DNA from: Thermoprotei archaeon
GTDB lineage: Archaea; Thermoproteota; Thermoprotei; QMSL01
DNA: 64,000 nt
Direction of reading: 5' to 3'
Assembly: GCA_003650925.1 (NCBI GenBank)
Contig: QMSP01000003.1
Span: 19,446-83,445 of the forward strand
The notes under the pieces are model-generated. The model made no database searches. It had not been told where the DNA came from and saw only the letters and a list, made by a program, of their open reading frames with translations. Within the stretch, counting starts at the first letter, position 1, and every line of letters starts with the position of its first letter. Shown one piece after another: positions 46,997 through 62,792 of this stretch. The translations under genes were made by a program, and so were the position numbers.

Positions 46997-47959
46997 TTGG
47001 AACAGCTAGAGATCAAACCCATGGAGGAGCGTTCTCTGATAGAGGAGATCTCGAGACTAGCTGAAGACGTTAGAGCATTGAGAAGAGAGCTGGACGAGGC
47101 CTTGAAGCTTCTTGAGAGGAGATTCAGTAGGTCACATCCCATAGTGGCTAAAGCTCTTAGGACTTTGCTTGAAGAGGTAAAACTTCCCAAGGTTCCTGAG
47201 GAGGAATCTATTTTCAAGCTCAGGGAGAGCCTCAGCCGATATCGAGAGGAACTAAGGAGATGTCTTGAGAGAATTACAAGGAAAGCCGAGGAACTGGATA
47301 AGCTTGCTATGACCTTGAATTTCCTAGAGAGGGAGAGTCCTTCACTTAAGCTATGGGCTGATGCGATCATGAAGCTGGATAGAGGACTCTATGAGAGGAC
47401 TCAGAACTTCTTCAAGAGGTTGGATGGCCTGAGACAGCTTAATAGCTATGATGCTGTACAGAAGGAAGCCTCAAGCCTCAGTGCAGAGCTGAGAATACTC
47501 ACAATGGCGTGCAAGGAGGTTCTTTACAAAAGATTATACGAGATAAGTAAGATGGCTAGCCTAGCCCTGAAGCTGTACTGCCAAGCGAAGAGTGTTGCCC
47601 CACTTGAGGTAAGAGGAGACATGGATAAAATAGCTAGTGAGGTCAGGCAGATACTGGACAAGATAAATGAGGCGAAAAACAACGCTCCTCACATCAGGCT
47701 CGACTTAGAAGCTATGAAGAGTTTATTGAGCAAGGCTATAGCTCTTTTCAAGGAGGTTCTAAGCGAAGGTATAGGAGATATGGAGAGTGAGATACTTAAA
47801 GCACTGGATAGGTGTGCAGCCAGGTCAAAGCCCGTCAAGCTACACATACTGGTAGCTCAATTATGTGCCATGACTAATAGGGCGCCGCAGGAAGTCTTGG
47901 ACACCATGCTGAAGCTTAGTAAAAAGAACTTAGTGGACATCAAGATCAAAATATCCTAG
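46997..47959 (+). CDS. Coiled-coil protein of unknown function.
   Basis: 320 aa rich in E/K/R/L heptad-like repeats. Confidence 0.4.
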   Translation: MEQLEIKPMEERSLIEEISRLAEDVRALRRELDEALKLLERRFSRSHPIVAKALRTLLEEVKLPKVPEEESIFKLRESLSRYREELRRCLERITRKAEELDKLAMTLNFLERESPSLKLWADAIMKLDRGLYERTQNFFKRLDGLRQLNSYDAVQKEASSLSAELRILTMACKEVLYKRLYEISKMASLALKLYCQAKSVAPLEVRGDMDKIASEVRQILDKINEAKNNAPHIRLDLEAMKSLLSKAIALFKEVLSEGIGDMESEILKALDRCAARSKPVKLHILVAQLCAMTNRAPQEVLDTMLKLSKKNLVDIKIKIS

Positions 47960-48033
47960 CCACATAGCTGTCAGCTGAGCTCTTGAGTAAGCCTTAATAC
48001 ACTCTCTTCACTAGACGAGATAGGAGCTTCGTC

Positions 48034-48666
48034 ATGAGGAGGAGGGTACGACGTGTATATATAGGAAGACACCTCATGGTTAAGGGAGAGTATGTAGATG
48101 CTATTCTAAAAGGCGAGAAGCGAGCTACCATAAGATTAGGCATTGTTATCCCAAAGTTTAGAGAGATAATACTTCATGGAGGAGGAAAAGTAATAGGCAA
48201 GGCTGTGATAGAGGAGGTCAAGCATAAAAGAGTGAAAGACCTCACGGATAATGATGCTATAGCTGATGGATTTTCAAGTAGACATGAGCTCATGAGGGAG
48301 TTAATACGATGCTATCCTGGGATAAGAAAAAGTGATTATGTTACAATCATAAGATTCAAACTAGTCGAGAAGGCCACTGAAGGAAGGGAGGATACCATGT
48401 ACATGGGGTTCAGCCCAGTAGACATAGCGAGGATTGCAATGCGCTACTCATTGCCCATAGGCGAAGGAGAGAGGCAAATTCTGGAGTTAGTGTCAAGGAC
48501 AGGAAGCATAAGAAGAGCCGCCCAAGAGCTTGGAGGTCTTGAGAAGAGGCGCATGATAAGAAGAGTTCTCAGAAAGGTTGTTAAACTTCTTGCAGAGAGG
48601 GGTATCATCAGGGCACCACTTGAAGGGAGGAATGAGGAAGCCTCAGGCCCCCTCATGAATAGGTGA
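48034..48666 (+). CDS. ASCH (PUA-like) domain protein with a C-terminal HTH-like tail.
   Basis: ASCH GxKxxExR motif (GEKRATIR) and a C-terminal …RQILELVSRTGSIRRAAQELGG…. Confidence 0.45.
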   Translation: MRRRVRRVYIGRHLMVKGEYVDAILKGEKRATIRLGIVIPKFREIILHGGGKVIGKAVIEEVKHKRVKDLTDNDAIADGFSSRHELMRELIRCYPGIRKSDYVTIIRFKLVEKATEGREDTMYMGFSPVDIARIAMRYSLPIGEGERQILELVSRTGSIRRAAQELGGLEKRRMIRRVLRKVVKLLAERGIIRAPLEGRNEEASGPLMNR

Positions 48667-48670
48667 TATT

Positions 48671-48988
48671 TCAGCTTAAGACTCTGACCAATACCTTCCT
48701 GGCAACTCCTACGCCCAAGATAATCTTCCATCCTCTAATGTGTCGTCTATCACTTGCACTCACGTCACTTTTATTGCGGAGCAACTCTACGACCACAGGA
48801 CCAGGTCTTGATGCATTCACAACTCTTACAAGAGCACCAGCTGAGAGACCCATCTCAGCAAGCCTACGCACAAGTCCTCTTCCCCCGCTTACACCTACTA
48901 TCTCAACTAAGGCTCCCTCTGGGGCTAGAGCAAGTGGTACTATAAGCTGCTTGCCTTCGCCAGCCTTCATTACTATCGCCTCCCTCAT
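48671..48988 (-). CDS. FeoA/DtxR-C-terminal-like SH3 domain protein.
   Basis: About 105 aa with …LAPEGALVEIVGVSGGRGLVRRLAEMGLSAGALVRVV… resembling the FeoA fold. Confidence 0.45.
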   Translation of the reverse strand: MREAIVMKAGEGKQLIVPLALAPEGALVEIVGVSGGRGLVRRLAEMGLSAGALVRVVNASRPGPVVVELLRNKSDVSASDRRHIRGWKIILGVGVARKVLVRVLS

Positions 48989-49022
48989 GTCTCTGCCTCC
49001 TCTTAGGCTAACCTAACTAGTT

Positions 49023-49038
49023 TAGGCTAGCCTAAATT
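49023..49038. promoter_or_regulatory. 16-bp perfect palindrome TTTAGGCTAGCCTAAA, a candidate operator or terminator.
   Basis: Seen directly. It lies between the DUF134 gene 3' end and the FeoA-like gene 5' end on the minus strand. Confidence 0.3.
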
Positions 49039-49089
49039 TACAATAGGAGGTTTATAAGGATAATTATGTGCTATGGCTCAAAATCTTCC

Positions 49090-49467
49090 TCAGCGTGACG
49101 AAGGCCTACCTAGCGTTCGATAGTTCTGAGGAAGTACATAAGGACTCACTATAAGTGGACGAGGCGTATAGAGCATAAGAGCTATTTTCTTCCTAGCACT
49201 ATTAAGACAGCGCCAGAGAGTGCCTCTGCTTATCCCCATCCTTAAGGCTGCTTTATCTTGGGTAAGCCCTTCATGGTACACAAGACGAAAGGCCTCATAT
49301 TCATCCATGTAAAGTATGACAGGCTCTGGATCTCCCATCCTGTTGCCATTAGCATCAAAAGGTATGAACTGGATGAACCTGGGCTCTATGCTTATAAACC
49401 TGGGCTTGGAGGGTCTTCCAACTCTTCCCCAACGATGTCGCCATATCCAGCCATGCACAAGAACCAC
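49090..49467 (-). CDS. DUF134/UPF0251-family predicted DNA-binding protein.
   Basis: N-terminal GRPSKPRFISIEPRFIQFIP and a C-terminal sigma-70-region-4-like HTH (…LTQDKAALRMGISRGTLWRCL…). Confidence 0.55.
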   Translation of the reverse strand: MVLVHGWIWRHRWGRVGRPSKPRFISIEPRFIQFIPFDANGNRMGDPEPVILYMDEYEAFRLVYHEGLTQDKAALRMGISRGTLWRCLNSARKKIALMLYTPRPLIVSPYVLPQNYRTLGRPSSR

Positions 49468-49510
49468 CTCTCTACTATTAATGTCTCAGAGTATTTAAAA
49501 GATGTGGAAT

Positions 49511-49756
49511 TTATTCTCCACTAGACTTCTCAGCCCATGGAGGTCCTCCTCCACCTCTCCCTCTGCCTCTTCCCCAGCCTCTTCTTCCACGCCCCCTATC
49601 CACTCTATGTATCATATGGTGTGGAGCTCCGCATCTAGGACATTGAAGAGGTTTAGGCATGCCATAGGGCACCTCTATGATATTGCCACATGCCATGCAT
49701 TGAAAGCGTTTCATTGGAGGCTTTACCTCACTAGTCATTGAATACCCCCTCCACAA
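49511..49756 (-). CDS. Zinc-ribbon mini-protein with an RGG/RG-rich tail.
   Basis: CMACGN…CPRCG zinc ribbon followed by RGRGRRGWGRGRGRGGGGPPW. The true start is probably the internal Met (MKRFQC) at about 49714. Confidence 0.45.
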   Translation of the reverse strand: MWRGYSMTSEVKPPMKRFQCMACGNIIEVPYGMPKPLQCPRCGAPHHMIHRVDRGRGRRGWGRGRGRGGGGPPWAEKSSGE

Positions 49757-50630
49757 GCCTGGCTAAAGAGTTTATGACTCTATAGAAAGGTCTCTTCTCA
49801 TCCATGAGCTTGTTTAGATCTCCAGAGCTGTAAGCTGTGTGTACCACCTCATCATAGGGAACCATAGTCAAGGTGTACACGAAAGGTAACCCCTTAGCAA
49901 TTTCCCATACCTCCCTTATAAAGCTCTCCCAACCATCAAACTCTCCAACCTTATTGACTACGATAATACATTGCCTCTTAAACCTCTTATTTAGGTCTAG
50001 TACAAGTTTCAGATCATGAATTCCCATGGGAGTAGGCTCGGTGATTACAAGAACTATATTACTGATATTAAGAACCTCCGATATTATAGAACCTGCTCCC
50101 GGAGGACAGTCCACTAGAAGTATTTTGTTCTTGACATTATCTTTAACATAATCTATTAGAAGATGGGCTACTAAAGGACTTCTCTCATCTCCAGGAACTA
50201 TTTCGCCTCCTATAACAACAAGATCCTTAAGCTTGCCCCTCCATATATATCCCATGATTCGGTAGTCCTCCTTAACGGCATCATGGGGGCATACTATTTT
50301 GCATATGGTACATCCATTACATAATTCAGCTATGAGACTAGGCGGTCTTCCTGGAGGGGCTACAAGAGCATTCTCAGGACAATTCCTTACACATATACTG
50401 CATCCAGTACACTTCCTAGTATCTATTGAAGGAATAAAAGCTTTTAACTCCTTGACAATCTCCACTTGCTCCATGAAGACCTTAGACGAAGGATTATCAA
50501 CATCAGCATCGATATACACAACATCATGTTTCATCTTAGCCAAAAGATAGGCTATGCTAAGAGCTATAGTAGTCTTCCCTGTGCCTCCTTTGCCGCCTAG
50601 GACTCCTATAACCTGTACATTAGAGTGCAC
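49731..50630 (-). CDS. MinD/ParA-superfamily P-loop ATPase with an inserted 2x[4Fe-4S] ferredoxin domain (COG1149-like).
   Basis: Deviant Walker A GGKGGTGKTT. Two CxxCxxCxxxCP motifs (CTGCSICVRNCP, CNGCTICKIVCP). Confidence 0.7.
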   Translation of the reverse strand: MHSNVQVIGVLGGKGGTGKTTIALSIAYLLAKMKHDVVYIDADVDNPSSKVFMEQVEIVKELKAFIPSIDTRKCTGCSICVRNCPENALVAPPGRPPSLIAELCNGCTICKIVCPHDAVKEDYRIMGYIWRGKLKDLVVIGGEIVPGDERSPLVAHLLIDYVKDNVKNKILLVDCPPGAGSIISEVLNISNIVLVITEPTPMGIHDLKLVLDLNKRFKRQCIIVVNKVGEFDGWESFIREVWEIAKGLPFVYTLTMVPYDEVVHTAYSSGDLNKLMDEKRPFYRVINSLARLVEGVFND

Positions 50631-51495
50631 TTTCGATCACCTCCCTGAAGAGCTTGACTAGGGCTCTTGAAGCAGGACTCTCAGGGTATTTGACTATGAC
50701 TGGCTTGCCCATGACATAGGCTCTATAAACATGTTCATCATATGGTATCATGCCCTCCACTTTAATACCTCTCCTATGAAGTAGGTCAAGAATTCTCTTC
50801 ATGATTTCCTCCTTGTACTTATTCAAGATGACCAAATAGGGCACCTTGAAGTGTTCCAAGACCTTAATTACTCTTTCGCATCCCTGAAGTGATGCAAGAG
50901 AAGGCTCTAGCACTACTATGCCTAGGTCGGCTCCGGATATGGCAGCTATAGTAGGGCAGCCTATGCCAGGGGCTGAATCTATCACTATAACACCATCCTT
51001 CTTCGCAAGACCCTCAGCCATTTCCTTAGCCCTATAGACAAGCTTACCAGTATGCCTCATGCCAAGGGCTAAGTTTCCACTTATTAGAGGAAAACCATAA
51101 TCAGTCTCCATTATCCTAAGCTTACCTGGCTCTACATCCTTTAGGACTATAGCCTCTCTAGGACATACAAGACTACAAGCACCGCATCCTTCACATAGAT
51201 AATCTATAACCATGGGTTTACCTTCTATGAGCTCAATAGCTTTAAATTGACATGTAGCAATACACGCTAGGCAATCTATACACTTATCCCTATCTATGAA
51301 GGCTCTTTTAGCCCCCCTTTCAACATATTCCCTAACAACCCTCCCTCCTAAGACAAGATGAAGATTAGGAGCCTCAAGATCAGCATCAAGAGCTATAACA
51401 TTAAAACCATTCTCATGTAAATAAATAGAAAAATTTGAAGATATTAGAGTCTTTCCAACCCCTCCTTTGCCGCTTACCACCACTATTTGCTTCAA
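50620..51495 (-). CDS. MinD/ParA-superfamily P-loop ATPase with an inserted ferredoxin domain (paralog of the downstream gene).
   Basis: GKGGVGKT Walker A. Ferredoxin motifs CIDCLACIATCQ and CEGCGACSLVCP. An 11-bp overlap with the paralog. Confidence 0.7.
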   Translation of the reverse strand: MKQIVVVSGKGGVGKTLISSNFSIYLHENGFNVIALDADLEAPNLHLVLGGRVVREYVERGAKRAFIDRDKCIDCLACIATCQFKAIELIEGKPMVIDYLCEGCGACSLVCPREAIVLKDVEPGKLRIMETDYGFPLISGNLALGMRHTGKLVYRAKEMAEGLAKKDGVIVIDSAPGIGCPTIAAISGADLGIVVLEPSLASLQGCERVIKVLEHFKVPYLVILNKYKEEIMKRILDLLHRRGIKVEGMIPYDEHVYRAYVMGKPVIVKYPESPASRALVKLFREVIESAL

Positions 51496-51496
51496 G

Positions 51497-51844
51497 CTAT
51501 GCCTTCACCCCTAGCTTTCTCAAAGCCTCCCTAACCGTAATCTCTGGCTCTACATAGACTACTTCAATGCCTAGGCTTCTAAGAGCTGCTTCAGCTCTAG
51601 GTCCTAGTCTTGTTACCACGACCTTGCTAACTCCTTTATTAGCCAAGGTCTGTGCTGCAAGAGGGCCTGCACCATGTCCTACGCTAACGGCTGGATTCTC
51701 TATGGCCTCAACTTTAACTATTCTTGAACCTTCTAACTCCACTATGGTGAATGTCTTACATCTTCCAAAGCTTTGTGCTACGAGGTCATCAAGTCCTCCT
51801 TGACTAGCAGATGTTATAGCTATCTTCTCTCTTCCCATGGTCAT
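51497..51844 (-). CDS. NifX/NifB-C-terminal-like (dinitrogenase FeMo-cofactor biosynthesis) domain protein.
   Basis: About 115 aa with …KIAITSASQGGLDDLVAQSFGRCKTFTIVE…GHGAGPLAAQTL… typical of the COG1433 fold. Confidence 0.6.
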   Translation of the reverse strand: MTMGREKIAITSASQGGLDDLVAQSFGRCKTFTIVELEGSRIVKVEAIENPAVSVGHGAGPLAAQTLANKGVSKVVVTRLGPRAEAALRSLGIEVVYVEPEITVREALRKLGVKA

Positions 51845-51865
51845 TCCTCTTGCTGTAGTTATTAG

Positions 51866-52192
51866 TTAAGGTGGCGCCCTACTTTTCCTCCTTTCCTCAA
51901 TAATGCGCCTCAGCTCCTTTATTGCCTCTTCAACACTTCTAAGCTCCTCTTCTAGCTCTCTCTTATACTGCTCAAGCATGGAAAGTTCTTCCTCAGGGCT
52001 TGGTGGTGGAGGTGGTGGCATGTAGTACATTGGTGGTGGATAGTAAGCCGCATAGGCAGGATATGCTTGTTGAGATGGTTGTTGAGTCTGCTGGGCTTGT
52101 GGAGCACTTGAGGGAGCCGATACTGGAGGTGGCGGAGGAGGAGGCATGTAGTACATTAGTCTTCTCCACCACCAGTACCACATACTTTTCAC
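51866..52192 (-). CDS. Pro/Tyr/Trp-rich low-complexity protein with a C-terminal coiled coil.
   Basis: MKSMWYWWWRRLMYYMPPPPPPP…MYYMPPPPPPSPEEELSMLEQYKRELEEELRSVEEAIKELRRIIEERRK. The 12-nt direct repeat CATGTAGTACAT (52019-52030 and 52145-52156) encodes the repeated MYYM. Confidence 0.4.
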   Translation of the reverse strand: MKSMWYWWWRRLMYYMPPPPPPPVSAPSSAPQAQQTQQPSQQAYPAYAAYYPPPMYYMPPPPPPSPEEELSMLEQYKRELEEELRSVEEAIKELRRIIEERRKSRAPP

Positions 52193-52200
52193 CTTTTCAC

Positions 52201-52398
52201 CTAGGCTGGTGGCTTGAAAGCAGTTTCAAAAGCCTTTCTCCAAGCCTCTATAGCTGTTCTGAAGACATCAATGAAGAGCCACCAGTAGTACGTTGCCATG
52301 AGCAGACTGAATAGGTCATACATTAGTGGATATGGCATCAGGTACCAGTATGGTGAATATGGCAGAGGAGGAACATAATAATAGATGTATGGATTCAT
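52201..52398 (-). CDS. Tyr/Pro-rich mini-protein with a hydrophobic C-terminal half.
   Basis: MNPYIYYYVPPLPYSPYWYLMPYPLMYDLFSLLMATYYWWLFIDVF…. It is in the same frame as the upstream Trp-rich ORF, separated only by TGA plus 3 codons. Confidence 0.3.
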   Translation of the reverse strand: MNPYIYYYVPPLPYSPYWYLMPYPLMYDLFSLLMATYYWWLFIDVFRTAIEAWRKAFETAFKPPA

Positions 52399-52407
52399 GT
52401 TATCACC

Positions 52408-52677
52408 TCACCATGGCCTTATTGGGTACCATGGCATTATGTACCATGGATATGACCATGTTCCCCATGGCCACCAGTAGTACATTGGGTAGTATCCATA
52501 GTAGCCTAGCCATGGATACATCCATGGACCAAAGAGCCACCAGCAAGCTCCTCTTCCGAACAACCACCCTGGTCTAAGCCATGGTGGAAGCCAGCTAAAT
52601 GGTCCTCTTCCTGGCCATGGGCTGATCCATCCCCATCCTCTCCCGCCTCTCCATCCCCATCCCATTCCGATCACCAC
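52408..52677 (-). CDS. Extremely Trp/Gly/Pro-rich mini-protein.
   Basis: …GWGWRGGRGWGWISPWPGRGPFSWLPPWLRPGW…PWMYPWLGYYGYYPMYYWWPWGTWSYPWYIMPWYPIRPW. The coding DNA is a CCATGG cluster, so either strand could in principle be the real one. The minus strand is chosen for operon context. Confidence 0.3.
   Translation of the reverse strand: MVIGMGWGWRGGRGWGWISPWPGRGPFSWLPPWLRPGWLFGRGACWWLFGPWMYPWLGYYGYYPMYYWWPWGTWSYPWYIMPWYPIRPW
52411..52620. repeat. Cluster of eight CCATGG hexamers in 210 bp.
   Basis: CCATGG counted at 52411, 52429, 52444, 52465, 52510, 52522, 52579 and 52615, often as TACCATGG or GCCATGG. This is far above random expectation for a 6-mer. Confidence 0.5.
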
Positions 52678-52772
52678 TTATGTGCTATAGCACATAAGTC
52701 TTAAATCTACCTATATATAAATTTATCTCATATCAAAAAGGACGAGTAAAATAAGAGTTGTTTGCAGGAGGG

Positions 52773-55700
52773 CTAGGAGTGCAGTGCTTTCTCCGCTCTT
52801 TCTATGTACTTAGCCTGCTCTTTTGATGGGAGAGATCTCCACAGTAATAGCTGCTTCCTTATGCTATCGATGAAGTAGTAGTTTGATGAAACCCATATTG
52901 ACCTAGCGCCAGAGATCCTCCTTAGGTGTAGACTGAAGGCGTAGCGCTTCTCTTCGGGCAGTAGGCTTGCTGAGATCGCCACCTCCTGATTCACCTGCAT
53001 CTCATAGGGAGCCAAGCCTACTATTAGCAGTAGAGCATTCTTATCATACTGTATGCCCTTCAGCTCCCTGACCATGAAGGTCCTGGTCTCTCTGCCCTCT
53101 CCCTCAAAGTACTCCCTTAGGTATTCAATTACTCCTAGGGCCTCTTTTCTCGAGGGAACTCTTAGTGGTAGAGGTATGTCCCACTCATCCCCTCTTGGCT
53201 TAGTTGGTGGCTTCCATCTTCTCTCAAGTGAGGGAGTGACCATCTTAGCGGCTATTGAAGCTGGATAGGCTGCTGAGGTTAAGGTTGCAAGTATGATACA
53301 GGCTATGGCTACTAGTACGAAGAGGGAGGAGTAGTTGAGGACGAAGTATCCAGGAAGTAGGCCTGTGCTTATGAAGACTAGGTTTGTATAGAAGCCTATG
53401 ATGTAGCCGACGAGTGCTCCTAGGATAGCGTAGACCAGGGTTTCTGATACGAACATCGAGGCCACTCCTATGGGCGAAAGCCCTAGGCTGCTATAGGTGA
53501 AGATCTCCCTAACCCTTTCTTTGACTGCACCAAGCATGGTTACAACTATGTTAGCAATGCCTATAGCTAGGATTACGCTCACTAGGTTCCAGCCTAGGAG
53601 AAGGAATACGGTGATCCTGGACAGCTTATGAACAACCCCTTCCCATCCCATGAACACCTCAACGTCGAGGCACATGGCAGCATCCCATGCCATTTTATGA
53701 AGAACCTCCTTTGCAAGGTCTCTGTTGGCCTCTATGACTTCAGGCTTTAGTCTTATGGCTACATTAGCTACATATCCTCCCAGGTCCAGCGCTAATCTCC
53801 ATGGTACTATAAGGACTGAGCTCCAAGAGAGCGTCGTAGGTGCAGGGACCTGTGGGGGAGCGACAAACCTACATAGAGGCTGTACAGTTATGGGATCAAC
53901 AGGTGTTATGGCTCTATTGTCAAGGTCAACTACACTGCCAAGTATAGAGCCATCAAAGATACCCATGACCTTGAGCTTTATACCTGCCCACTCTATGACA
54001 TCTCCTATGGTTACATTTAGCTTCTCAGCTACATATTTCTCGAGTATGCATGCATAGTAGTCATCCTCTCTGAATCCCTCACCTATTAGCACGTCCTTGA
54101 ATATTATCTTGACCTCCTCCGCACGCATTCCAAGAAGAGCTCTTACAGCATAGATATTCTCACCATGTCTAAGTATGGCCTTAGGGCCTTCTGATGGCAG
54201 CTCAGTCTCTGGATAGTACCAAACTCTTGGGCATACTATAGCGTAGTCTCCAGCTAAACCTTCAGCGTACTCTATCAAGTGATGGTCAAATATATCATAG
54301 GGCACACAGTATTGCCTCTTCAAGAAGACTCCTGCGTATACAGCCTCCTCGGGAGGAGCTGCAGCCTTGGGAACAGCAACTCTCTTGACCGTAGTGTAGT
54401 AGGAGGCTGATGTTATCGAAGTGAGGCCTATAGCTATGGCTATGATAGTAGCTAATACAAGGGTTGTTCTAAGCTTCCTCTTCCTCATGTTCTCAACTGC
54501 TACCGAGAAGGCTAACATCATTATGCCTACAGTGCCTGTCTCAGGCTTGTGCAGGCCCTTGAGCTTTAGAGCTACCTCCTTCATTATCCTATTGACCTCA
54601 TCGAACAGTATGGCCAGTGTTATTATGAAGAAGACCTCTAGTAGGATACCCATGAAGCCCATGAAAGCATTGCTTATGATGCTTAGCCCTGGGTGCATGT
54701 TGTAGAATATGAATACAAGCACTATGGAGAGTGCTATGGTGACAAGCAGTCTTCTACGTCCTTCACTATGGAACAATAGACGCTCGAAGAAGAAGACAAA
54801 GGGTATCATGAGAGCGAAGAATGCTATTGTGGTGTTGGCTGTATCATTGATCAGGCTCATGACTTCCTCATAAGCTCTCACTGACCATGTCCATGCTAGA
54901 TAGGCCTCTCTATAGGCCTTGTCATATTCCATATTTCTATAGTATTCCTCAGCTAGTTCAAGGTGCCTCTTGGCCTCCTTGAGCACTTCCTCAGCGCTAA
55001 GGCTTCTGACAAGCTTTGAAGCTAGTGTATTATACCTATGTCTTGCTACGGTATACATGTCGTACGCATATCGATAGGCAGTGAAGGGTATGCTATAGGA
55101 CCTTATCTTATAGCCCAGCTCTATTCCACTTCCCTCGGGATATTCATCACTAGCGTTTACTACGAAGGCCACAGTTCTAGGCAGGCCAGGGCCTGCACTC
55201 ATAACAACGAAGGACCTAGTTCTTGGAAGGAGGAACACCATAGCTACTTCTTCATTTTGACTATACATGGTTCCATACCATATGTATATGCTTCGACTCT
55301 CGAAGTCATATGGAGTTATGATGAAGGACTCCAGTAGGAACTCCTCAGCATTCAGTCTAGGGTCTGGGATGTATATTCGTCTCATCAGCTTAGGGTCTAT
55401 GACGTCGTAGAGCGTTATGGTACATGCAGGCATTACTACAGTAGCAGCTTCAGCTGTCCCTCCTAGAAGCCATAGCTTGAAGTTCACAAACTTTATACCA
55501 TACTGACCATAGTCAGGAGCGTATATTATCTCTCCTGTATTCTCATCAACAACCCATGCATCTACATACCAGCCAATTCCTCTAGGAACTTCGGCAGGCA
55601 GGACAGGTGCCCAACCAGCATCTATGGAAGGTGTTGGACATAGGCCATGCACTATGAAGTCTCCATTCTCATCAGCATAGACGATGATCTGAGAGAATGG

Positions 55701-57437
55701 ATATGTTGATGCAAGCCATACTCTAACAAGAGCTCTTGGGATCTTGGAGAACCAGCCTTTGCTTATGTTGTATGTCCAGACAATACCTTTAAGAGTAACG
55801 AAGCCAGCACTCCACACCTGATAGCTGCCCACTTGGAACCACTGGAATCTCCTTGGCTTTATCAAGCTCCAGTCCAGCCCTAGCTTGGGTTCATATATCA
55901 CACAACACAGCACTGGCAGAGCCTGTATAACTAGCTTCTTTAGATTTTCCATGTTCACATAGGCACGGTCATCAAGAGGAGTATTCCAGTGCACTCTATA
56001 GGCATGTGCTGTCCTAAGGGTTATTGAAGGTAGTCCTGCCACAGCCAGAGGCTCGCTATCTATCATGTAGGGTGATGGGCTTCTTCCCCACCAGCCATAT
56101 TGAGTTATGAAGTCCTTGGTGCCCATTATTATGCTCACGCCGTACAAGGACTTGGCAACTTGCTCAACTGCATAGATCCATCTGCTATAGAGCCTCCTCA
56201 GTGGCTCCCATCTAGTGACCACGTATTGGCCTTCCCAATGTATAGCGTAACGATAGAAACAGCCTGCATGGAGTATGTCAAGTTCGTCAGAGTCCGTTGA
56301 GAAGTCCAGGTTGATCTGAGTCCAGACCTTATAGTTCTCCTTTTGTATCAAGTCATCGAATAGCACATATTCAACGAATTCCCTAGGACCAGCCAAGGCT
56401 TCCCAATGCCCTGAGAAGGCTACAAACATAAGGCTTCTTGGCGGTGGATTCTCAGAGAAGTATCGAGCAAGCTCAAGGAGAACAGCTATACTGGTTGCTT
56501 CATCAACTCCTCTCGAGAACGCTAGAACAGGGCTCCAGCTATCATAGTGAGCACTTATAATTATTATTTCATCAGGTGTCTCAGTGCCCTTGATCAGGCC
56601 TATGACATTGTAGGCTTCAACCTCTCTATAGAAGACTCTGGAAACTACTCTGACCTCAACCTTACCATGCTCCTTAAGCAGCTTGAGAAGCTGAGCTCCT
56701 ACGTCTGAGGTTACATATACTCGAGGAGTATATAGCGGAGTTATCAGGATCTTAGCCAGAGAGTCGAGCCTTGTAGCGTGTGGAGTCTCCATGAATATAA
56801 CTGCTTTGGCTCCAAGCTTGAAGGCATTAAGCCACTTTCTTCCACAATCATACCTAAGCATCACTATAGCTCCTTCAATACGTTTGCCATTGAAATCCTC
56901 TAGGTCTCCATCATCAGCGTAAACCAATGTTCCTCTAAGCCCTTCTGGTGGTGTTGGAGAAGTCTGTATTGAATTAGGCCACATTGAATAGGCCTTTAAC
57001 CTCATTCTCACAGGGCTTATTACTTCTATGTAACACTCCTCTTCGACAGGAGCTACCACCTTATACTTCTGGAAGTACCCATCTAGTCTCTCAAGCAGTC
57101 TCTCGGATTTGAAGCCGAATTCCTTAGGCGTTATTAATCCATATTCCTCAAACTTCTCAGCGATGTATTCGGCAACCTCCCTAAGGCCAGGCTGACCTGG
57201 TATTCTACTGCCAGCCTTCTCTATTACGGAGAGGTGCTCAGCCACTCTATCATAGTCTATACTCTTCACGACCTTCTCATATATTGACCTTATCTCCTCC
57301 TCGGGTACTTGACCATAGTTCCCCCTGATGCTAACCGATGTCACCAAGGATGTCATTGCAATAGATGAAATGAGCATTATAGCCAATAGTAGGATGAGCA
57401 TACGGTCTTTGACTCTAAGACTCTTAACGTCAAGCAT
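52773..57437 (-). CDS. Giant (1554 aa) membrane fusion protein: signal/TM, M28-peptidase-like plus PA ectodomain, polytopic middle region, and a C-terminal MacB/FtsX-type permease module.
   Basis: N-terminal TM (LILLLAIMLISSIAM). M28-like HxD and Asp motifs (IISAHYDSW, GVDEATSIAVLLEL, FSGHWE). A MacB-like N-terminal helix …VENMRKRKLRTTLVLATIIAIAIGLTS…, a large extracytoplasmic segment and a C-terminal FtsX three-TM bundle (…LLLGWNLVSVILAIGIANIVVTMLGAVKERVREIFTYSSLGLSPIGVASMFVSETLVYAILGALVGYIIG…). No ABC ATPase lies nearby. Confidence 0.65.
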   Translation of the reverse strand: MLDVKSLRVKDRMLILLLAIMLISSIAMTSLVTSVSIRGNYGQVPEEEIRSIYEKVVKSIDYDRVAEHLSVIEKAGSRIPGQPGLREVAEYIAEKFEEYGLITPKEFGFKSERLLERLDGYFQKYKVVAPVEEECYIEVISPVRMRLKAYSMWPNSIQTSPTPPEGLRGTLVYADDGDLEDFNGKRIEGAIVMLRYDCGRKWLNAFKLGAKAVIFMETPHATRLDSLAKILITPLYTPRVYVTSDVGAQLLKLLKEHGKVEVRVVSRVFYREVEAYNVIGLIKGTETPDEIIIISAHYDSWSPVLAFSRGVDEATSIAVLLELARYFSENPPPRSLMFVAFSGHWEALAGPREFVEYVLFDDLIQKENYKVWTQINLDFSTDSDELDILHAGCFYRYAIHWEGQYVVTRWEPLRRLYSRWIYAVEQVAKSLYGVSIIMGTKDFITQYGWWGRSPSPYMIDSEPLAVAGLPSITLRTAHAYRVHWNTPLDDRAYVNMENLKKLVIQALPVLCCVIYEPKLGLDWSLIKPRRFQWFQVGSYQVWSAGFVTLKGIVWTYNISKGWFSKIPRALVRVWLASTYPFSQIIVYADENGDFIVHGLCPTPSIDAGWAPVLPAEVPRGIGWYVDAWVVDENTGEIIYAPDYGQYGIKFVNFKLWLLGGTAEAATVVMPACTITLYDVIDPKLMRRIYIPDPRLNAEEFLLESFIITPYDFESRSIYIWYGTMYSQNEEVAMVFLLPRTRSFVVMSAGPGLPRTVAFVVNASDEYPEGSGIELGYKIRSYSIPFTAYRYAYDMYTVARHRYNTLASKLVRSLSAEEVLKEAKRHLELAEEYYRNMEYDKAYREAYLAWTWSVRAYEEVMSLINDTANTTIAFFALMIPFVFFFERLLFHSEGRRRLLVTIALSIVLVFIFYNMHPGLSIISNAFMGFMGILLEVFFIITLAILFDEVNRIMKEVALKLKGLHKPETGTVGIMMLAFSVAVENMRKRKLRTTLVLATIIAIAIGLTSITSASYYTTVKRVAVPKAAAPPEEAVYAGVFLKRQYCVPYDIFDHHLIEYAEGLAGDYAIVCPRVWYYPETELPSEGPKAILRHGENIYAVRALLGMRAEEVKIIFKDVLIGEGFREDDYYACILEKYVAEKLNVTIGDVIEWAGIKLKVMGIFDGSILGSVVDLDNRAITPVDPITVQPLCRFVAPPQVPAPTTLSWSSVLIVPWRLALDLGGYVANVAIRLKPEVIEANRDLAKEVLHKMAWDAAMCLDVEVFMGWEGVVHKLSRITVFLLLGWNLVSVILAIGIANIVVTMLGAVKERVREIFTYSSLGLSPIGVASMFVSETLVYAILGALVGYIIGFYTNLVFISTGLLPGYFVLNYSSLFVLVAIACIILATLTSAAYPASIAAKMVTPSLERRWKPPTKPRGDEWDIPLPLRVPSRKEALGVIEYLREYFEGEGRETRTFMVRELKGIQYDKNALLLIVGLAPYEMQVNQEVAISASLLPEEKRYAFSLHLRRISGARSIWVSSNYYFIDSIRKQLLLWRSLPSKEQAKYIERAEKALHS

Positions 57438-61712: not shown

Positions 61713-62792
61713 CTACTCAAGAGGTAGCTTGATAGGTCTACCTTCAGCTGATGATCTGAGGGCAGCTTCGGCTATCTCTAGGGCCCTGAGACCTTCTACT
61801 TCATTTATCTCAGGCCTCTTGTCCTCTATTATGCACTTGATGAAGTATTCTAGCTCCCTCTTGTACATGAGCTTCCAGTCCTCCTCCATCCTCAACTGCT
61901 CATAGGGACCATCAGCTATCCTGATCTTCATGACCCCGCTTAAATATCCTTCCACAGCCACAGTGCCTTTCTCGCCAACTACTCCCCATGAGTCCCAGCT
62001 ATGTGTGCCAGACCAGCTCTGTATGAGAGTTGATATGGTGCCCTCCTTGTGAATACATACTACTGATGCGTTATCCTCAATCGTTATGCCCGACTGTACA
62101 GTCATGACCTTAGCGTAGACAGTATCTACATCTCCAGCGAACCATCGAAAAGCATCGAATGCATGAACTGCATTTTCAACTAACATGCCACCACTTATGG
62201 TCTTGTCCTTAAGCCATGGAGCTGGGGGTAATGGCCATACACAGACTCTCCATATGTTAACAGGTCTTCCAAGTCTTCCACTATCTATTAGCTCCTTGAC
62301 GTGCTTGAACATTGAGTGGAATCTGAGGCAGAAGCCCACCATACACTTGACGCCAGCCTTCTTTATAGCGTCCACTACCTCTTTAGCATCCTTTACATTG
62401 GTGGTAATGGGCTTCTCCACAAATACATGTTTACCTGCCCTGGCAGCATTTATCACTTGATCCTTATGAGTAAGAGGTGGCGTAGCTATGAGGACAGCGT
62501 CTACCTCAGGCATTTCAAGCACTTTATGATAGTCAGTATAGTACTTCTCAACTTTGAACTGCTCAGCAGTTTTTCTTGCCTTCTCCTCAACTACATCACA
62601 TACAGCTACGACTTCTACGTCAGGGATCTCTGTCAGAGAAGGCAAGTGAACACTTGTCGATATGAAACCACAGCCTATAACAGCCATTTTCACTCTTGCC
62701 ACGTTACCACCATAAATAACAAGATGAGGTTTCAATTTAACTCTTAGTGAAGTACTCCCAAGGCCTTTTGATGAACTCTCTAATCCTCTCAA
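61713..62792 (-). CDS. Gfo/Idh/MocA-family NAD(P)-dependent oxidoreductase.
   Basis: N-terminal Rossmann MAVIGCGFISTSVHLPSL and the EKP motif (VFVEKPIT). Confidence 0.75.
   Translation of the reverse strand: MRGLESSSKGLGSTSLRVKLKPHLVIYGGNVARVKMAVIGCGFISTSVHLPSLTEIPDVEVVAVCDVVEEKARKTAEQFKVEKYYTDYHKVLEMPEVDAVLIATPPLTHKDQVINAARAGKHVFVEKPITTNVKDAKEVVDAIKKAGVKCMVGFCLRFHSMFKHVKELIDSGRLGRPVNIWRVCVWPLPPAPWLKDKTISGGMLVENAVHAFDAFRWFAGDVDTVYAKVMTVQSGITIEDNASVVCIHKEGTISTLIQSWSGTHSWDSWGVVGEKGTVAVEGYLSGVMKIRIADGPYEQLRMEEDWKLMYKRELEYFIKCIIEDKRPEINEVEGLRALEIAEAALRSSAEGRPIKLPLE

What the first reader, a model, noticed from the sequence alone, without database searches (positions are those of the whole stretch)
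49090..51844. DUF134 / RGG-tailed zinc ribbon / tandem MinD-ferredoxin ATPases / NifX-like protein operon
Five co-directional, overlapping genes: a DUF134 putative DNA-binding protein, a zinc-ribbon mini-protein, two paralogous MinD-type P-loop ATPases each carrying an inserted 2x[4Fe-4S] ferredoxin domain, and a NifX/NifB-C-like cofactor-binding protein. The COG1149 (ATPase-ferredoxin) and COG1433 (NifX-like) families co-occur widely in anaerobes, and their function is still undefined. It is presumed to be metallocluster trafficking or insertion. The extra zinc-ribbon/RGG protein and the DUF134 regulator in the same operon are less usual additions.
Basis: partly seen in the sequence, partly recalled or inferred. 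Interest (0 to 1): 0.55.

Follow-up and report, generated by a model that had tools for sequence, protein, structure and literature searches.

The report
Archaeal orange-protein-type metal-sulfur cluster operon
This is an archaeal version of the little-understood "orange protein" gene cluster of anaerobes, which probably stores or delivers metal-sulfur clusters, and comparing it with related loci reveals the likely DNA switch used by its DUF134 regulator.

Summary
The five genes exist as described, on the minus strand at 49090-51844. They are a NifX/ORP-like protein, two paralogous MinD-fold ATPases each with an inserted 2x[4Fe-4S] domain, a zinc-ribbon protein with an RG tail, and a DUF134 helix-turn-helix protein. 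The unit is larger than reported, about 48671-52724. Three aromatic, Gly/Arg/Pro-rich mini-genes (archaeal DUF5320-like) lie upstream and a feoA gene lies downstream.

The closest known system is the Desulfovibrio orange-protein (ORP) complex, and IssA is the closest relative for the tail-like proteins.

In 39 loci with ferredoxin-ATPases versus 41 plain-MinD control loci, NifX-like genes occur in 37 vs 0, DUF5320-like in 24 vs 0 and DUF134 in 15-16 vs 0. DUF134 is therefore a common partner. Bacterial DUF134 proteins often carry a C-terminal zinc ribbon and RG tail, so the window's two genes look like a split form.

A palindrome (TGTGNW4NCACA, consensus TTTTGTGCTATAGCACAAAA) sits in the cluster promoters of six archaeal loci. 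It gives 8 hits in 145 kb, against 3 in 862 kb elsewhere. A related bacterial site lies just upstream of DUF134 genes. I read it as the DUF134 operator.

The function, ATP- and electron-driven handling of an anionic metal-sulfide species, is inferred and was not shown.

The parts
52712..52721 (-). TATA-like box TTTATATATA of the cluster promoter (inferred)
   Evidence: Read directly from the sequence. It lies in the 95-nt gap after the unrelated 1554-aa gene, 12 nt upstream of the palindrome. No experimental support.
52676..52699 (.). Perfect 24-bp palindrome ACTTATGTGCTATAGCACATAAGT, the predicted DUF134 operator, overlapping the expected transcription start
   Evidence: 12-nt arms, 100% complementary. 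The core GTGCWATAGCAC is unique in the 64-kb window. TGTGNW4NCACA occurs at equivalent promoter positions in L083, L085 (twice), L089, L090 (twice) and L091: 8 hits in 145 kb against 3 in 862 kb. The flanking DNA is not conserved.
52408..52677 (-). W/G/P/Y/R-rich mini-protein of 89 aa (probably 85 aa from the ATG at 52665); N-terminal-type module of an archaeal DUF5320-like family
   Evidence: Composition is 19 W, 16 G, 14 P, 10 Y, 6 R, no D/E, 1 Cys. It gives 34 hits at E<=1e-3 among 1.8 billion representative proteins, sharing the motif GPWPGRGPFSxLPPWxRPGWLxGRGACWWL. Many of these end in a DUF5320-type coiled coil. Orthologs head the cluster in L083, L085, L090 and L091.
52201..52398 (-). 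Y/P/W-rich 65-aa protein with a hydrophobic aromatic core and a conserved C-terminal FRxxIExWRKAxE helix; function unknown
   Evidence: ORF. Orthologs occupy the same position (after the W-rich gene) in L083 (68 aa) and L085 (68 aa). No Pfam or NCBIfam hit.
51866..52192 (-). Pro-rich plus coiled-coil 108-aa protein, DUF5320-like C-terminal module
   Evidence: PF17253 DUF5320 E 9.2e-5, 24 bits, just below the cut-off of 27. An iterated profile links it to 39 ORFs in 26 loci. Orthologs are in L083, L085, L089, L090 and L091.
51497..51844 (-). NifX/ORP/IssA-type Nitro_FeMo-Co single-domain protein (115 aa), the presumed carrier of the metal-sulfur species
   Evidence: PF02579 E 7e-20. PDB matches are MTH1175 (1EO1, E 8.6e-14) and the D. 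gigas orange protein (2WFB, E 1.3e-11), both over the full length. It is not NifX proper: TIGR02663 scores 16 bits against a cut-off of 112.
50620..51495 (-). ATPase A: MinD-fold P-loop ATPase with an inserted 2x[4Fe-4S] ferredoxin domain; subfamily with the switch-II motif DxAPGIGC
   Evidence: Pfam and NCBIfam results. Walker A residues and 8 Cys are invariant in 25 homologs. The AF2 model has pLDDT 93.2. Best Foldseek matches are FlhG, MinD and FleN. Subfamily assignment.
49731..50630 (-). ATPase B: paralog (25% identity to A), subfamily DxPPGTSC, here DCPPGAGS with the switch-II Cys lost
   Evidence: Tandem A/B pairs occur in 35 of 39 loci. NCBI labels it 'CobQ', which the domain content does not support.
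49511..49738 (-). Zinc-ribbon (CxxC...CPxCG) mini-protein with an RG-rich tail, Pfam PF27353 'MJ0401' family; the presumed partner module of DUF134
   Evidence: Precomputed PF27353 annotation. Stand-alone orthologs lie beside the same gene set in L083 and L085. It shares 35% identity over 34 aa (E 4e-7) with the C-terminal ribbon of the L016 DUF134 protein. The ribbon-plus-RG-tail architecture recurs in bacterial DUF134 proteins.
49504..49521 (-). Hairpin followed by a T-run right after the zinc-ribbon stop; TTTTAAATA (49492-49500) could be the TATA box of a separate, leaderless DUF134 transcript
   Evidence: Terminator-like site. The TATA-like box was read, and its spacing to the GTG at 49467 is about 26-30 nt. 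This is inference only.
49090..49467 (-). DUF134 protein (125 aa): W/R/G-rich basic N-terminal arm plus a sigma-70-region-4-like helix-turn-helix; the predicted regulator of the cluster
   Evidence: PF02001 E 1.2e-22. In the AF2 model (pLDDT 82.6), helices 54-100 superpose on sigma region 4 and the DeoR DNA-binding domain at 0.5-0.8 A over about 46 residues. There is no solved DUF134 structure.
49017..49035 (-). DtxR/IdeR-type iron-box-like palindrome TTAGGCTAGCCTAAACTAG upstream of feoA
   Evidence: 16 of 19 matches to the consensus TTAGGTTAGCCTAACCTAA. It is the only such site in the window, against 0.02 expected. The consensus is quoted from PMC7762939. The perfect palindrome TTTAGGCT/AGCCTAAA is reported.
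48671..48988 (-). Stand-alone FeoA-domain protein (105 aa), a loosely associated last gene
   Evidence: PF04023 E 8.7e-12. FeoA is found in only 2 of 39 related loci, so membership of the system is uncertain.

Best explanation
This is an archaeal (Thermoprotei MAG) orp-type gene cluster, the counterpart of the Desulfovibrio orange-protein (ORP) complex genes, merged with IssA-like features.

Shown by comparison:
- Its core is a NifX/ORP-like carrier protein plus a pair of paralogous MinD-fold ATPases (subfamilies A and B). Each ATPase has an inserted two-[4Fe-4S] ferredoxin domain.
- It comes with DUF5320-like proteins rich in Trp, Gly, Arg, Pro and Tyr.
- It comes with a DUF134 helix-turn-helix protein, whose zinc-ribbon/RG-tail module is here a separate gene.
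- A conserved palindrome sits in the promoters of these clusters.

Inferred mechanism:
- The NifX-like domain and the cationic, aromatic, disordered DUF5320-like proteins hold an anionic inorganic metal-sulfide species. This could be thioferrate-like Fe-S, as in IssA, or a thiomolybdate/tungstate-type cluster, as in ORP.
- The A/B ATPase probably works as a heterodimer. It would use ATP-driven dimerisation and its four [4Fe-4S] clusters to build the species, to reduce and release it, or to insert it into target proteins. This is loosely analogous to NifH acting with NifX/NifEN.
- DUF134, with the zinc-ribbon/RG protein, binds the palindrome TTTTGTGCTATAGCACAAAA. In the window this site overlaps the expected transcription start, so DUF134 would control expression, most simply as a repressor.
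- feoA, behind a DtxR-like iron box, hints at a link to iron supply.
For: Gene identities.

Homology to ORP parts:
- The NifX-like protein matches the D. gigas orange protein 2WFB (E 1.3e-11) and MTH1175 (E 8.6e-14).
- ORP-complex composition comes from PMC6345978 and PMC8359166.
- Related loci are genuine orp clusters: the L018 neighbour passes the MrpORP equivalog cut-off (510 against 450 bits).

Case/control neighbourhood, 39 ferredoxin-ATPase loci against 41 plain-MinD loci:
- NifX-like 37 vs 0.
- DUF5320-like 24 vs 0.
- DUF134 15-16 vs 0.
- Tandem ATPase pairs in 35 of 39.

ATPases:
- A and B are two distinct subfamilies that are almost always paired.
- Walker A and all 8 Cys are invariant.
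- The fold is MinD-like with an insertion.

Conservation despite rearrangement: the whole gene set is conserved but reordered in L083, L085 and L090.

Tail-like proteins:
- Nitro_FeMo-Co plus DUF5320 fusions exist. L013 scores 93 and 44 bits, both above the cut-offs.
- This mirrors the IssA architecture of a globular domain plus a cationic Trp/Gly/Arg tail proposed to wrap anionic thioferrate.
- The composition of the 89-aa protein matches that description.

Operator:
- 8 hits in 145 kb of archaeal DUF134 loci, all in cluster promoters, against 3 in 862 kb elsewhere.
- A related bacterial site, TTATGAGN-ATAT-NCTCATAA, lies 8-40 nt upstream of DUF134 or NifX-like genes in L007, L023, L028 and L029.
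- DUF134 has a sigma-region-4-like HTH.
Against: - No biochemical function is known even for the Desulfovibrio ORP complex. Its authors favour an indirect role in cell division.
- The nature of the bound inorganic species is unknown. The window protein lacks the IssA tail on the same chain, and there is no MrpORP gene in the cluster.
- DUF5320 membership is just below the Pfam threshold (24 against 27 bits).
- The zinc ribbon to DUF134 link rests on one significant pairwise alignment (L016) plus shared architecture. L007 gave no alignment.
- DUF134 binding to the palindrome is inferred from co-occurrence only. Another regulator could use the site.
- The position of the palindrome relative to the TATA box differs between loci, so repressor versus activator is open.
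- FeoA association is weak (2 of 39 loci).
- The heterodimer is inferred from paired paralogs, not modelled.
Confidence: 0.65

Rival explanations
1. The ATPase pair is a MinD-like positioning or cell-division system, and the other genes are accessory. ATP-dependent dimers would bind the membrane through C-terminal amphipathic helices and place a partner protein.
For: - The best structural matches are MinD, FlhG and FleN.
- The C-terminal helices are strongly amphipathic (muH 0.64 and 0.75).
- The literature reports morphological defects when orp genes are off, polar localisation of MrpORP, and amphipathic C-termini in Orp3/Orp4.
Against: - No MinC/MinE, FtsZ or Cdv/ESCRT genes are nearby.
- The MinD models are far below their cut-offs (103.6 against 201.75 bits).
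- Every family member carries eight invariant cluster-binding Cys.
- The family is found next to NifX-like carriers in 37 of 39 loci, whereas plain MinD loci never are.
- In the AF2 model the last helix is part of a confident fold, so it is not shown to be a free membrane anchor.
Confidence: 0.1
2. The cluster is a dedicated maturation factor for one specific metalloenzyme, for example a tungsten or molybdenum enzyme, a hydrogenase or a nitrogenase-like enzyme. On this reading it is not a general storage or trafficking system.
For: - SIMIBI ATPases such as CooC, HypB and NifH are enzyme-specific maturases (established knowledge).
- MobB/FeS lies beside the cluster in L083.
- A tungsten-type AOR lies near a DUF134 module in L086, and HypA/HypB-like/HypF lie near one in L089.
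- NCBI names the small protein 'dinitrogenase iron-molybdenum cofactor'.
Against: - No consistent client enzyme gene is found across the 39 loci or the archaeal loci.
- There are no nif genes in the window neighbourhood, and the NifX equivalog is not met.
- The neighbours differ from locus to locus.
Confidence: 0.15
3. The ATPases are ordinary Mrp/ApbC Fe-S carriers or CobQ-type cobalamin enzymes, as current database names suggest, and the grouping has no special meaning.
For: - NCBI names ATPase B 'cobalamin biosynthesis protein CobQ'.
- Pfam CbiA is the top hit.
- There are weak hits to MrpORP and ApbC over the P-loop only.
Against: - ApbC scores 34.8 against 348 bits and MrpORP 45-56 against 450 bits, covering only residues 1-55.
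- There is no glutamine amidotransferase domain.
- CbiA is a generic P-loop family.
- The ferredoxin insertion is invariant.
- The grouping is statistically tied to the ferredoxin-inserted type only.
Confidence: 0.03
4. The upstream mini-ORFs and the palindrome are not functional. The mini-ORFs would be spurious reading frames in low-complexity DNA, and the palindrome a chance or structural element such as a terminator of the upstream gene.
For: - One gene caller did not call the 89-aa ORF, and another mis-framed its ortholog.
- The sequence is compositionally extreme.
- The palindrome lies only about 75 nt after the stop of the 1554-aa gene.
Against: - The protein-level motif is conserved in 34 database proteins and in four further loci.
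- The trio order is conserved in L085.
- The palindrome recurs in divergent promoters where no upstream gene ends (L089, L090).
- There is no T-run after it, and the flanks are not conserved.
Confidence: 0.04

Closest known systems
Orange protein (ORP) complex of Desulfovibrio vulgaris Hildenborough (Orp3/Orp4 ATPases, Orp8 orange protein, Orp5/Orp7 small proteins, Orp9 MrpORP; regulator OrpR)
   Same: - The core is the same: a single-domain Nitro_FeMo-Co protein homologous to the orange protein (2WFB, E 1.3e-11), plus two paralogous MinD-type ATPases each with two [4Fe-4S] motifs.
- Small Gly/Arg-rich proteins accompany the core.
- It is restricted to anaerobes, and a palindromic operator controls the cluster.
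- Related loci contain a true MrpORP.
   Different: - There is no Mrp/NBP35 (Orp9) gene in the cluster.
- There is no sigma-54 or OrpR. The regulator is DUF134 plus a separate zinc-ribbon/RG protein, with a different operator (TTTTGTGCTATAGCACAAAA rather than GGGCGYRTTTTGCGCCC).
- The genes run in one direction instead of forming two divergent operons.
- The DUF5320-like part is split into three extremely aromatic mini-proteins.
- ATPase B has lost the switch-II Cys.
- That Orp5/Orp7 belong to DUF5320 is my recollection and was not tested here.
IssA, the iron-sulfur storage protein of Pyrococcus furiosus (thioferrate nanoparticles)
   Same: - It has the same globular IPR003731/Nitro_FeMo-Co domain. 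The best PDB match of the window protein is MTH1175, which the IssA authors call an IssA-type protein.
- IssA's tail is described as Pro-rich, then cationic, aromatic (Trp) and Gly-rich, with one Cys. The window's 89-aa protein has the same make-up.
   Different: - In the window the tail-like sequence is a separate gene, not a C-terminal extension.
- The ATPase pair and DUF134 are not discussed in the two IssA papers consulted here.
- No evidence here for thioferrate or nanoparticles.
- I could not compare directly with the IssA sequence.
NifH with NifX/NafY/NifEN in nitrogenase cofactor maturation
   Same: A SIMIBI-class dimeric ATPase that carries Fe-S and works with Nitro_FeMo-Co-domain carriers of complex metal-sulfur clusters. 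This is a useful model for how the system might work.
   Different: - NifH binds one bridging cluster between subunits, whereas here each subunit has an inserted two-cluster ferredoxin domain.
- The fold is closer to MinD than to NifH.
- The NifX equivalog is not met (16 against 112 bits).
- There are no nif genes nearby.
DUF134 / UPF0251 (COG1342) predicted DNA-binding proteins
   Same: Clear family member (80.7 bits), with a sigma-region-4-like HTH.
   Different: - This is the archaeal short form, with a W/R/G-rich N-terminal arm and no C-terminal zinc ribbon.
- The ribbon and RG tail are supplied by the neighbouring gene.
- A search of the held paper library for DUF134, UPF0251 and COG1342 found no functional study or binding site.

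Membership tests
ORP (orange protein) complex gene cluster | Single-domain Nitro_FeMo-Co protein homologous to the orange protein (Orp8) | tested here: met
   PF02579 E 7e-20. Full-length match to D. gigas ORP 2WFB, E 1.3e-11.
ORP (orange protein) complex gene cluster | Two paralogous MinD-type ATPases each with two [4Fe-4S] ferredoxin motifs (Orp3/Orp4) | tested here: met
   The description of Orp3/Orp4 is in PMC6345978.
ORP (orange protein) complex gene cluster | Mrp/NBP35-Nitro_FeMo-Co fusion MrpORP (Orp9) | tested here: not met
   No such gene lies in or next to the cluster. NF041136 scores only 40-56 bits against a cut-off of 450 on the window proteins.
ORP (orange protein) complex gene cluster | Sigma-54 promoter and OrpR enhancer-binding protein | tested here: not met
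   No such regulator is in the locus. The locus has an archaeal TATA-type promoter and a DUF134 regulator instead.
ORP (orange protein) complex gene cluster | Physical five-protein complex and a Mo-Cu-S cluster on the orange protein | not testable with these tools
   Needs co-purification and metal analysis.
COG1149-type MinD ATPase with inserted ferredoxin domain | Deviant Walker A GKGGxGK[ST], MinD-like fold, and 2x CxxCxxCxxxCP inserted after the first strand-helix-strand | tested here: met
   Invariant columns in 25 sequences. Pfam CbiA spans residues 4-266 with Fer4 at 65-124. AF2 pLDDT is 93.2 and the best folds are FlhG and MinD.
Mrp/NBP35/ApbC Fe-S carrier | Family profile above cut-off; CxxC motif after switch II | tested here: not met
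   ApbC NF008669 scores 34.8 bits against 348, over the P-loop only. There is a single Cys (GIGC) in A and none in B. ApbC ranks 49th in the fold search.
MinD cell-division ATPase | minD_arch/minD_bact profile above cut-off; MinE/MinC or equivalent partners | tested here: not met
   TIGR01969 scores 103.6 against 201.75 for A and 51 for B. No partner genes are present.
NifX (nitrogenase cofactor carrier) | TIGR02663 above cut-off and nif gene context | tested here: not met
   16.4 bits against 112. No nif genes in the neighbourhood.
IssA iron-sulfur storage protein | IPR003731 domain followed on the same chain by a cationic Gly/aromatic-rich tail | tested here: not met
   The domain is present but the protein ends at residue 115 with no tail. 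Tail-like composition is found in the separate 89-aa gene. Fused forms exist in other loci.
DUF5320 (PF17253) | Pfam profile above the gathering score | tested here: inconclusive
   The 108-aa protein scores 24.0 bits against 27, and the L083 ortholog 25.6. An iterated profile joins them to clear DUF5320 proteins. The 89-aa protein gives no Pfam hit, but its relatives end in the same coiled coil.
DUF134 (PF02001) | Pfam profile above the gathering score | tested here: met
   80.7 bits against 27.
FeoA (PF04023) | Pfam profile above the gathering score | tested here: met
   45.4 bits against 23. No feoB is adjacent.

The most novel reading that the evidence does not exclude
The Trp/Gly/Arg/Tyr/Pro-rich mini-proteins would be free-standing equivalents of the IssA tail. 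Together with the NifX-like protein they would wrap an anionic metal-sulfide polymer into a storage particle or condensate. The ferredoxin-ATPase heterodimer would load it or reductively mobilise it. DUF134 has its own W/R/G arm and an RG-tailed zinc-ribbon partner. It would sense the same polyanion and switch the promoter at TTTTGTGCTATAGCACAAAA. This would assign a joint function to four families of unknown function (COG1149, DUF5320, DUF134, MJ0401) in both bacteria and archaea.
Probability: 0.15. Interest if true: 0.8.

Novelty: new variant of a known kind. Interest (0 to 1): 0.45.

Why it matters
- The ORP/COG1149 system is widespread in anaerobic bacteria and archaea, yet it has no established function.
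- This locus and its relatives tie together the ATPase pair, NifX-like carriers, DUF5320 proteins and DUF134.
- They link these families to the IssA model of holding anionic iron-sulfide on cationic aromatic tails.
- They yield a concrete, testable operator for DUF134, a family with no functional study in the held paper library.
- If the operator is confirmed, the conditions that switch the cluster on (iron, sulfide, molybdenum or tungsten, redox) could be read out directly. That would be the shortest route to the system's function.

Tried and rejected
- The Rfam scan of 48000-53500 found nothing.
- The sigma-70 promoter scan is no better than shuffles and does not apply to archaea.
- Base composition across the window is unremarkable.
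- The word-indexed search with the zinc ribbon found only 5 relatives, so its wider distribution is untested.
- BLASTP of the zinc ribbon against the L007 DUF134 protein gave no alignment.
- No DtxR-like gene and no further paralogs of the cluster genes exist in the window. The extra 'ATPase' hit at 62737-63987 is a PAPS reductase-ferredoxin fusion, matched only through its Fer4 domain.
- FeoA is rarely associated (2 of 39 loci), so I do not count it as a core part.
- The W-rich and YP-rich proteins were not found in bacterial loci.
- The weak second site at 49066-49081 (GAGCCATAGCAC, 2 mismatches) is within chance expectation and is not claimed.
- No solved structure exists for the full ATPase or for DUF134.
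- The 2011 ORP paper (PMC3133258) is not held.
- The idea that the switch-II Cys bridges a cluster between subunits, as in NifH, was dropped as a general feature because archaeal B subunits lack it.

Full report
**Observation.** Profile searches confirm each one.
- The 115-aa protein is a Nitro_FeMo-Co domain (71.6 bits against a cut-off of 26.3).
- The 291-aa and 299-aa proteins hit P-loop families of the MinD/ParA/CbiA type. Ferredoxin (Fer4) families match residues ~65-125, that is, inside the ATPase domain.
- The 75-81-aa protein gives zinc-ribbon hits and ends in RGRGRRGWGRGRGRGGGG.
- The 125-aa protein is DUF134 (80.7 bits against 27).

Spacing is tight from the NifX-like gene to the zinc ribbon (gaps of +1, -11 and -8 nt). 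A 43-nt gap with a hairpin, a T-run and a TTTTAAATA box precedes DUF134.

The sequence comes from a 'Thermoprotei archaeon' metagenome-assembled genome. Public records label the proteins 'dinitrogenase iron-molybdenum cofactor', 'cobalamin biosynthesis protein CobQ' and 'hypothetical'.

**The unit is larger.** Three more small ORFs lie on the same strand, 8-21 nt apart.
- 52677-52408 encodes 89 aa with 19 Trp, 16 Gly, 14 Pro, 10 Tyr, 6 Arg, no acidic residue and one Cys.
- 52398-52201 encodes 65 aa, rich in Tyr, Pro and Trp.
- 52192-51866 encodes 108 aa, Pro-rich and then a coiled coil. DUF5320 scores 24 bits here, just under the cut-off of 27.

Downstream, after a 101-nt gap, lies a stand-alone feoA (48988-48671).

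The mini-ORFs are real genes.
- The 89-aa protein has 34 relatives (E<=1e-3) among 1.8 billion representative proteins. They share GPWPGRGPFSxLPPWxRPGWLxGRGACWWL, and many end in the DUF5320-type coiled coil.
- Orthologs of all three occur in other archaeal contigs. L085 has them in the same order, and L083, L090 and L091 in other arrangements.

**What the ATPases are.**
- An alignment of 25 family members shows an invariant GKGGxGK[ST], two invariant CxxCxxCxxxC(P) motifs, and switch residues.
- The AlphaFold model (pLDDT 93.2) is closest to FlhG, MinD and FleN. NifH appears around rank 45 and ApbC at rank 49.
- No curated NCBIfam model is passed. minD_arch scores 103.6 against 201.75, ApbC 34.8 against 348, and MrpORP 45-56 against 450 over the P-loop only.
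- The PDB holds no full-length relative.

The two window proteins represent two subfamilies that are nearly always paired. Subfamily A has the switch-II motif DGxPGIGC and subfamily B has DxPPGTSC. The order is B then A in bacteria, and A then B in these archaea. The archaeal B subunits have lost the Cys. Obligate pairing suggests a heterodimer, but this is an inference.

**Comparative context.** A scan of one genome per species returned 80 loci. I translated all ORFs and searched them with iterated profiles seeded from the window proteins. Thirty-nine loci carry ferredoxin-inserted ATPases. Forty-one carry plain MinD-type genes and serve as controls.

| Feature | Ferredoxin-ATPase loci (39) | Plain-MinD controls (41) |
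|---|---|---|
| NifX-like | 37 | 0 |
| DUF5320-like | 24 | 0 |
| DUF134 | 15 (16 with one weak hit) | 0 |
| FeoA | 2 | 0 |
| Tandem ATPase pair | 35 | not counted |

Many loci also have an Mrp-type ATPase. The L018 (Desulfobacteraceae) neighbour passes the MrpORP equivalog cut-off (510 against 450 bits). These loci are therefore homologs of the Desulfovibrio orp operons. Those operons encode the orange-protein complex: Orp3/Orp4 ferredoxin-ATPases, the Orp8 orange protein, small Orp5/Orp7, and Orp9 MrpORP.

The window's NifX-like protein aligns over its full length with the D. gigas orange protein (2WFB, E 1.3e-11). It aligns slightly better with MTH1175 (E 8.6e-14).

**DUF134 and the zinc ribbon.**
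- Bacterial DUF134 proteins in these loci are longer (139-206 aa).
- At least 9 of 15 carry a C-terminal CxxC...CxxC ribbon, often followed by an RG-rich tail.
- The window's zinc-ribbon protein aligns with the ribbon of the L016 DUF134 protein (35% identity over 34 aa, E 4e-7). It did not align with L007.
- Close archaeal DUF134 homologs are all short and lack a ribbon.
- Stand-alone ribbon/RG proteins (Pfam PF27353 'MJ0401') sit beside the same gene set in L083 and L085.

I read the window's two genes as a split version of the bacterial fusion. Support for this is moderate.

The DUF134 model (pLDDT 82.6) has three helices (residues 54-100). They superpose on sigma-70 region 4 and the DeoR DNA-binding domain at 0.5-0.8 A. 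No DUF134 structure or functional study was found.

**A conserved operator.**
- A TATA-like box (52712-52721) and the first mini-gene flank a perfect 24-bp palindrome, ACTTATGTGCTATAGCACATAAGT (52676-52699).
- Its core, GTGCWATAGCAC, is unique in the window. In about 977 kb of fetched DNA it occurs exactly only three times, each just upstream of the W-rich gene (window, L083, L085).
- The flanks of the window and L083 sites are not conserved.
- With the looser pattern TGTGNW4NCACA there are 8 hits in 145 kb of eight archaeal DUF134 loci. All lie in intergenic promoter regions next to W-rich, DUF5320-like, NifX-like or DUF134 genes. The remaining 862 kb gives 3 hits.
- The consensus is TTTTGTGCTATAGCACAAAA.
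- In bacteria a closely related palindrome, TTATGAGN-ATAT-NCTCATAA, lies 25-40 nt upstream of DUF134 genes in L007, L023 and L028. It lies 8 nt upstream of the NifX-like gene in L029.

Co-variation of site and regulator across two domains of life is good indirect evidence that DUF134 binds this element. In the window the site overlaps the expected transcription start, which fits a repressor. In L085 it abuts the TATA box from the upstream side, so the mode of action is open.

**Link to IssA.** The IssA paper describes a Nitro_FeMo-Co-type globular domain followed by a disordered tail. The tail is Pro-rich, then cationic, aromatic and Gly-rich, with one Cys and conserved Trp/Gly/Arg character. 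It is proposed to wrap anionic thioferrate.

The window's 89-aa protein has this composition as a separate gene. Fusions of Nitro_FeMo-Co with DUF5320 exist in bacteria: L013 scores 93 and 44 bits, both above the cut-offs. Archaeal NifX-like proteins in L083, L089 and L090 carry RG/W-rich N-terminal extensions.

W/R/G-rich segments also occur at the DUF134 N-terminus (WRHRWGRVGRP, conserved in the archaeal subfamily) and in the zinc-ribbon tail. This recurring chemistry is the basis of my mechanistic proposal and of the more novel reading.

**Mechanism (inferred).**
- A NifX-like carrier and cationic aromatic disordered proteins hold an anionic metal-sulfide species.
- The A/B ferredoxin-ATPase uses ATP-dependent dimerisation and low-potential electron transfer. 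It would assemble the species, reductively release it, or insert it into target proteins.
- DUF134 with its ribbon/RG partner sets expression.

Which metal is involved is open.
- For iron: the IssA-like features, the best match to MTH1175, and feoA with a DtxR-type box. That box matches 16 of 19 consensus positions and is the only such site in the window, against 0.02 expected.
- For Mo or W: the orange-protein homology and the MobB/FeS neighbour in L083.

**Rivals.** A MinD-like positioning or division role is favoured by the ORP literature. It fits the fold and the amphipathic C-termini. It does not explain the invariant clusters or the exclusive association with cofactor carriers. An enzyme-specific maturase is possible, but no constant client gene is seen. 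The Mrp/ApbC and CobQ readings fail their profile tests.

**Verdict.** The locus is an archaeal variant of a known but functionally unsolved kind of system. The added value here is fourfold: the extended parts list, the split-gene relationships, the two ATPase subfamilies, and a predicted DUF134 operator conserved from bacteria to archaea.

Noticed in passing
window 49017-49035 (and 49021-49036): A DtxR/IdeR-type iron-box-like palindrome, TTAGGCTAGCCTAAACTAG, lies just upstream of the stand-alone feoA. It is followed by a second copy, TTAGGTTAGCCTAA. It is the only such site in 64 kb, and no DtxR-like gene is present in the window.
   Followed up: partly
window 62737-63987 (-): A 416-aa fusion of a PAPS-reductase domain with a C-terminal two-cluster ferredoxin domain. 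It surfaced only because its Fer4 part matched the ATPase profile.
   Followed up: partly
window 52773-57437 (-): A very large (1554 aa) protein combining a Peptidase_M28 domain with an FtsX-type permease domain lies directly upstream of the cluster. It is preceded by DUF6785 and OPT transporter genes, and no link to the cluster is evident.
   Followed up: no
L083 4425-5204 and 5196-6197; L085 9422-10336: In two other archaeal MAGs the orp-like cluster is flanked by an MtrH-family methyltransferase gene. In L083 it is also flanked by a MobB plus 'FeS' domain protein (a molybdenum-cofactor adaptor). This is a possible hint at Mo/W or corrinoid chemistry.
   Followed up: no
window 49731-50630; L004, L005, L083: ATPase subfamily B keeps a Cys seven residues after the Walker B Asp in bacteria (DxPPGTSC). 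It has lost this Cys in the archaeal loci examined (GAGS, GVGN, GTGA, GTSR). Subfamily A always keeps it (GIGC).
   Followed up: partly
L084 6001-6387: A 128-aa protein made of two tandem zinc ribbons of the same MJ0401 type, with an RG tail. It lies within 5 kb of feoA, a feoB fragment and a DtxR-family repressor gene.
   Followed up: partly
window 52408-52677; L001 8819-9088; L085 8586-8864: Automatic gene calling missed the W-rich mini-gene in the source contig. It also called a wrong frame over its ortholog in L085, so this family is probably under-annotated in databases.
   Followed up: yes
window 48034-48666 (+) and 46997-47959 (+): An ASCH-domain protein (210 aa) converges on the cluster's end. 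Next to it is a 320-aa coiled-coil protein with no family match in the precomputed annotation.
   Followed up: no
L086/L087 7001-7650; L091 1864-2819: In some archaea DUF134 is followed only by the W-rich and coiled-coil mini-genes, with no ATPase pair within 7 kb. The tightest association of DUF134 may therefore be with the DUF5320-like proteins rather than with the ATPases.
   Followed up: partly
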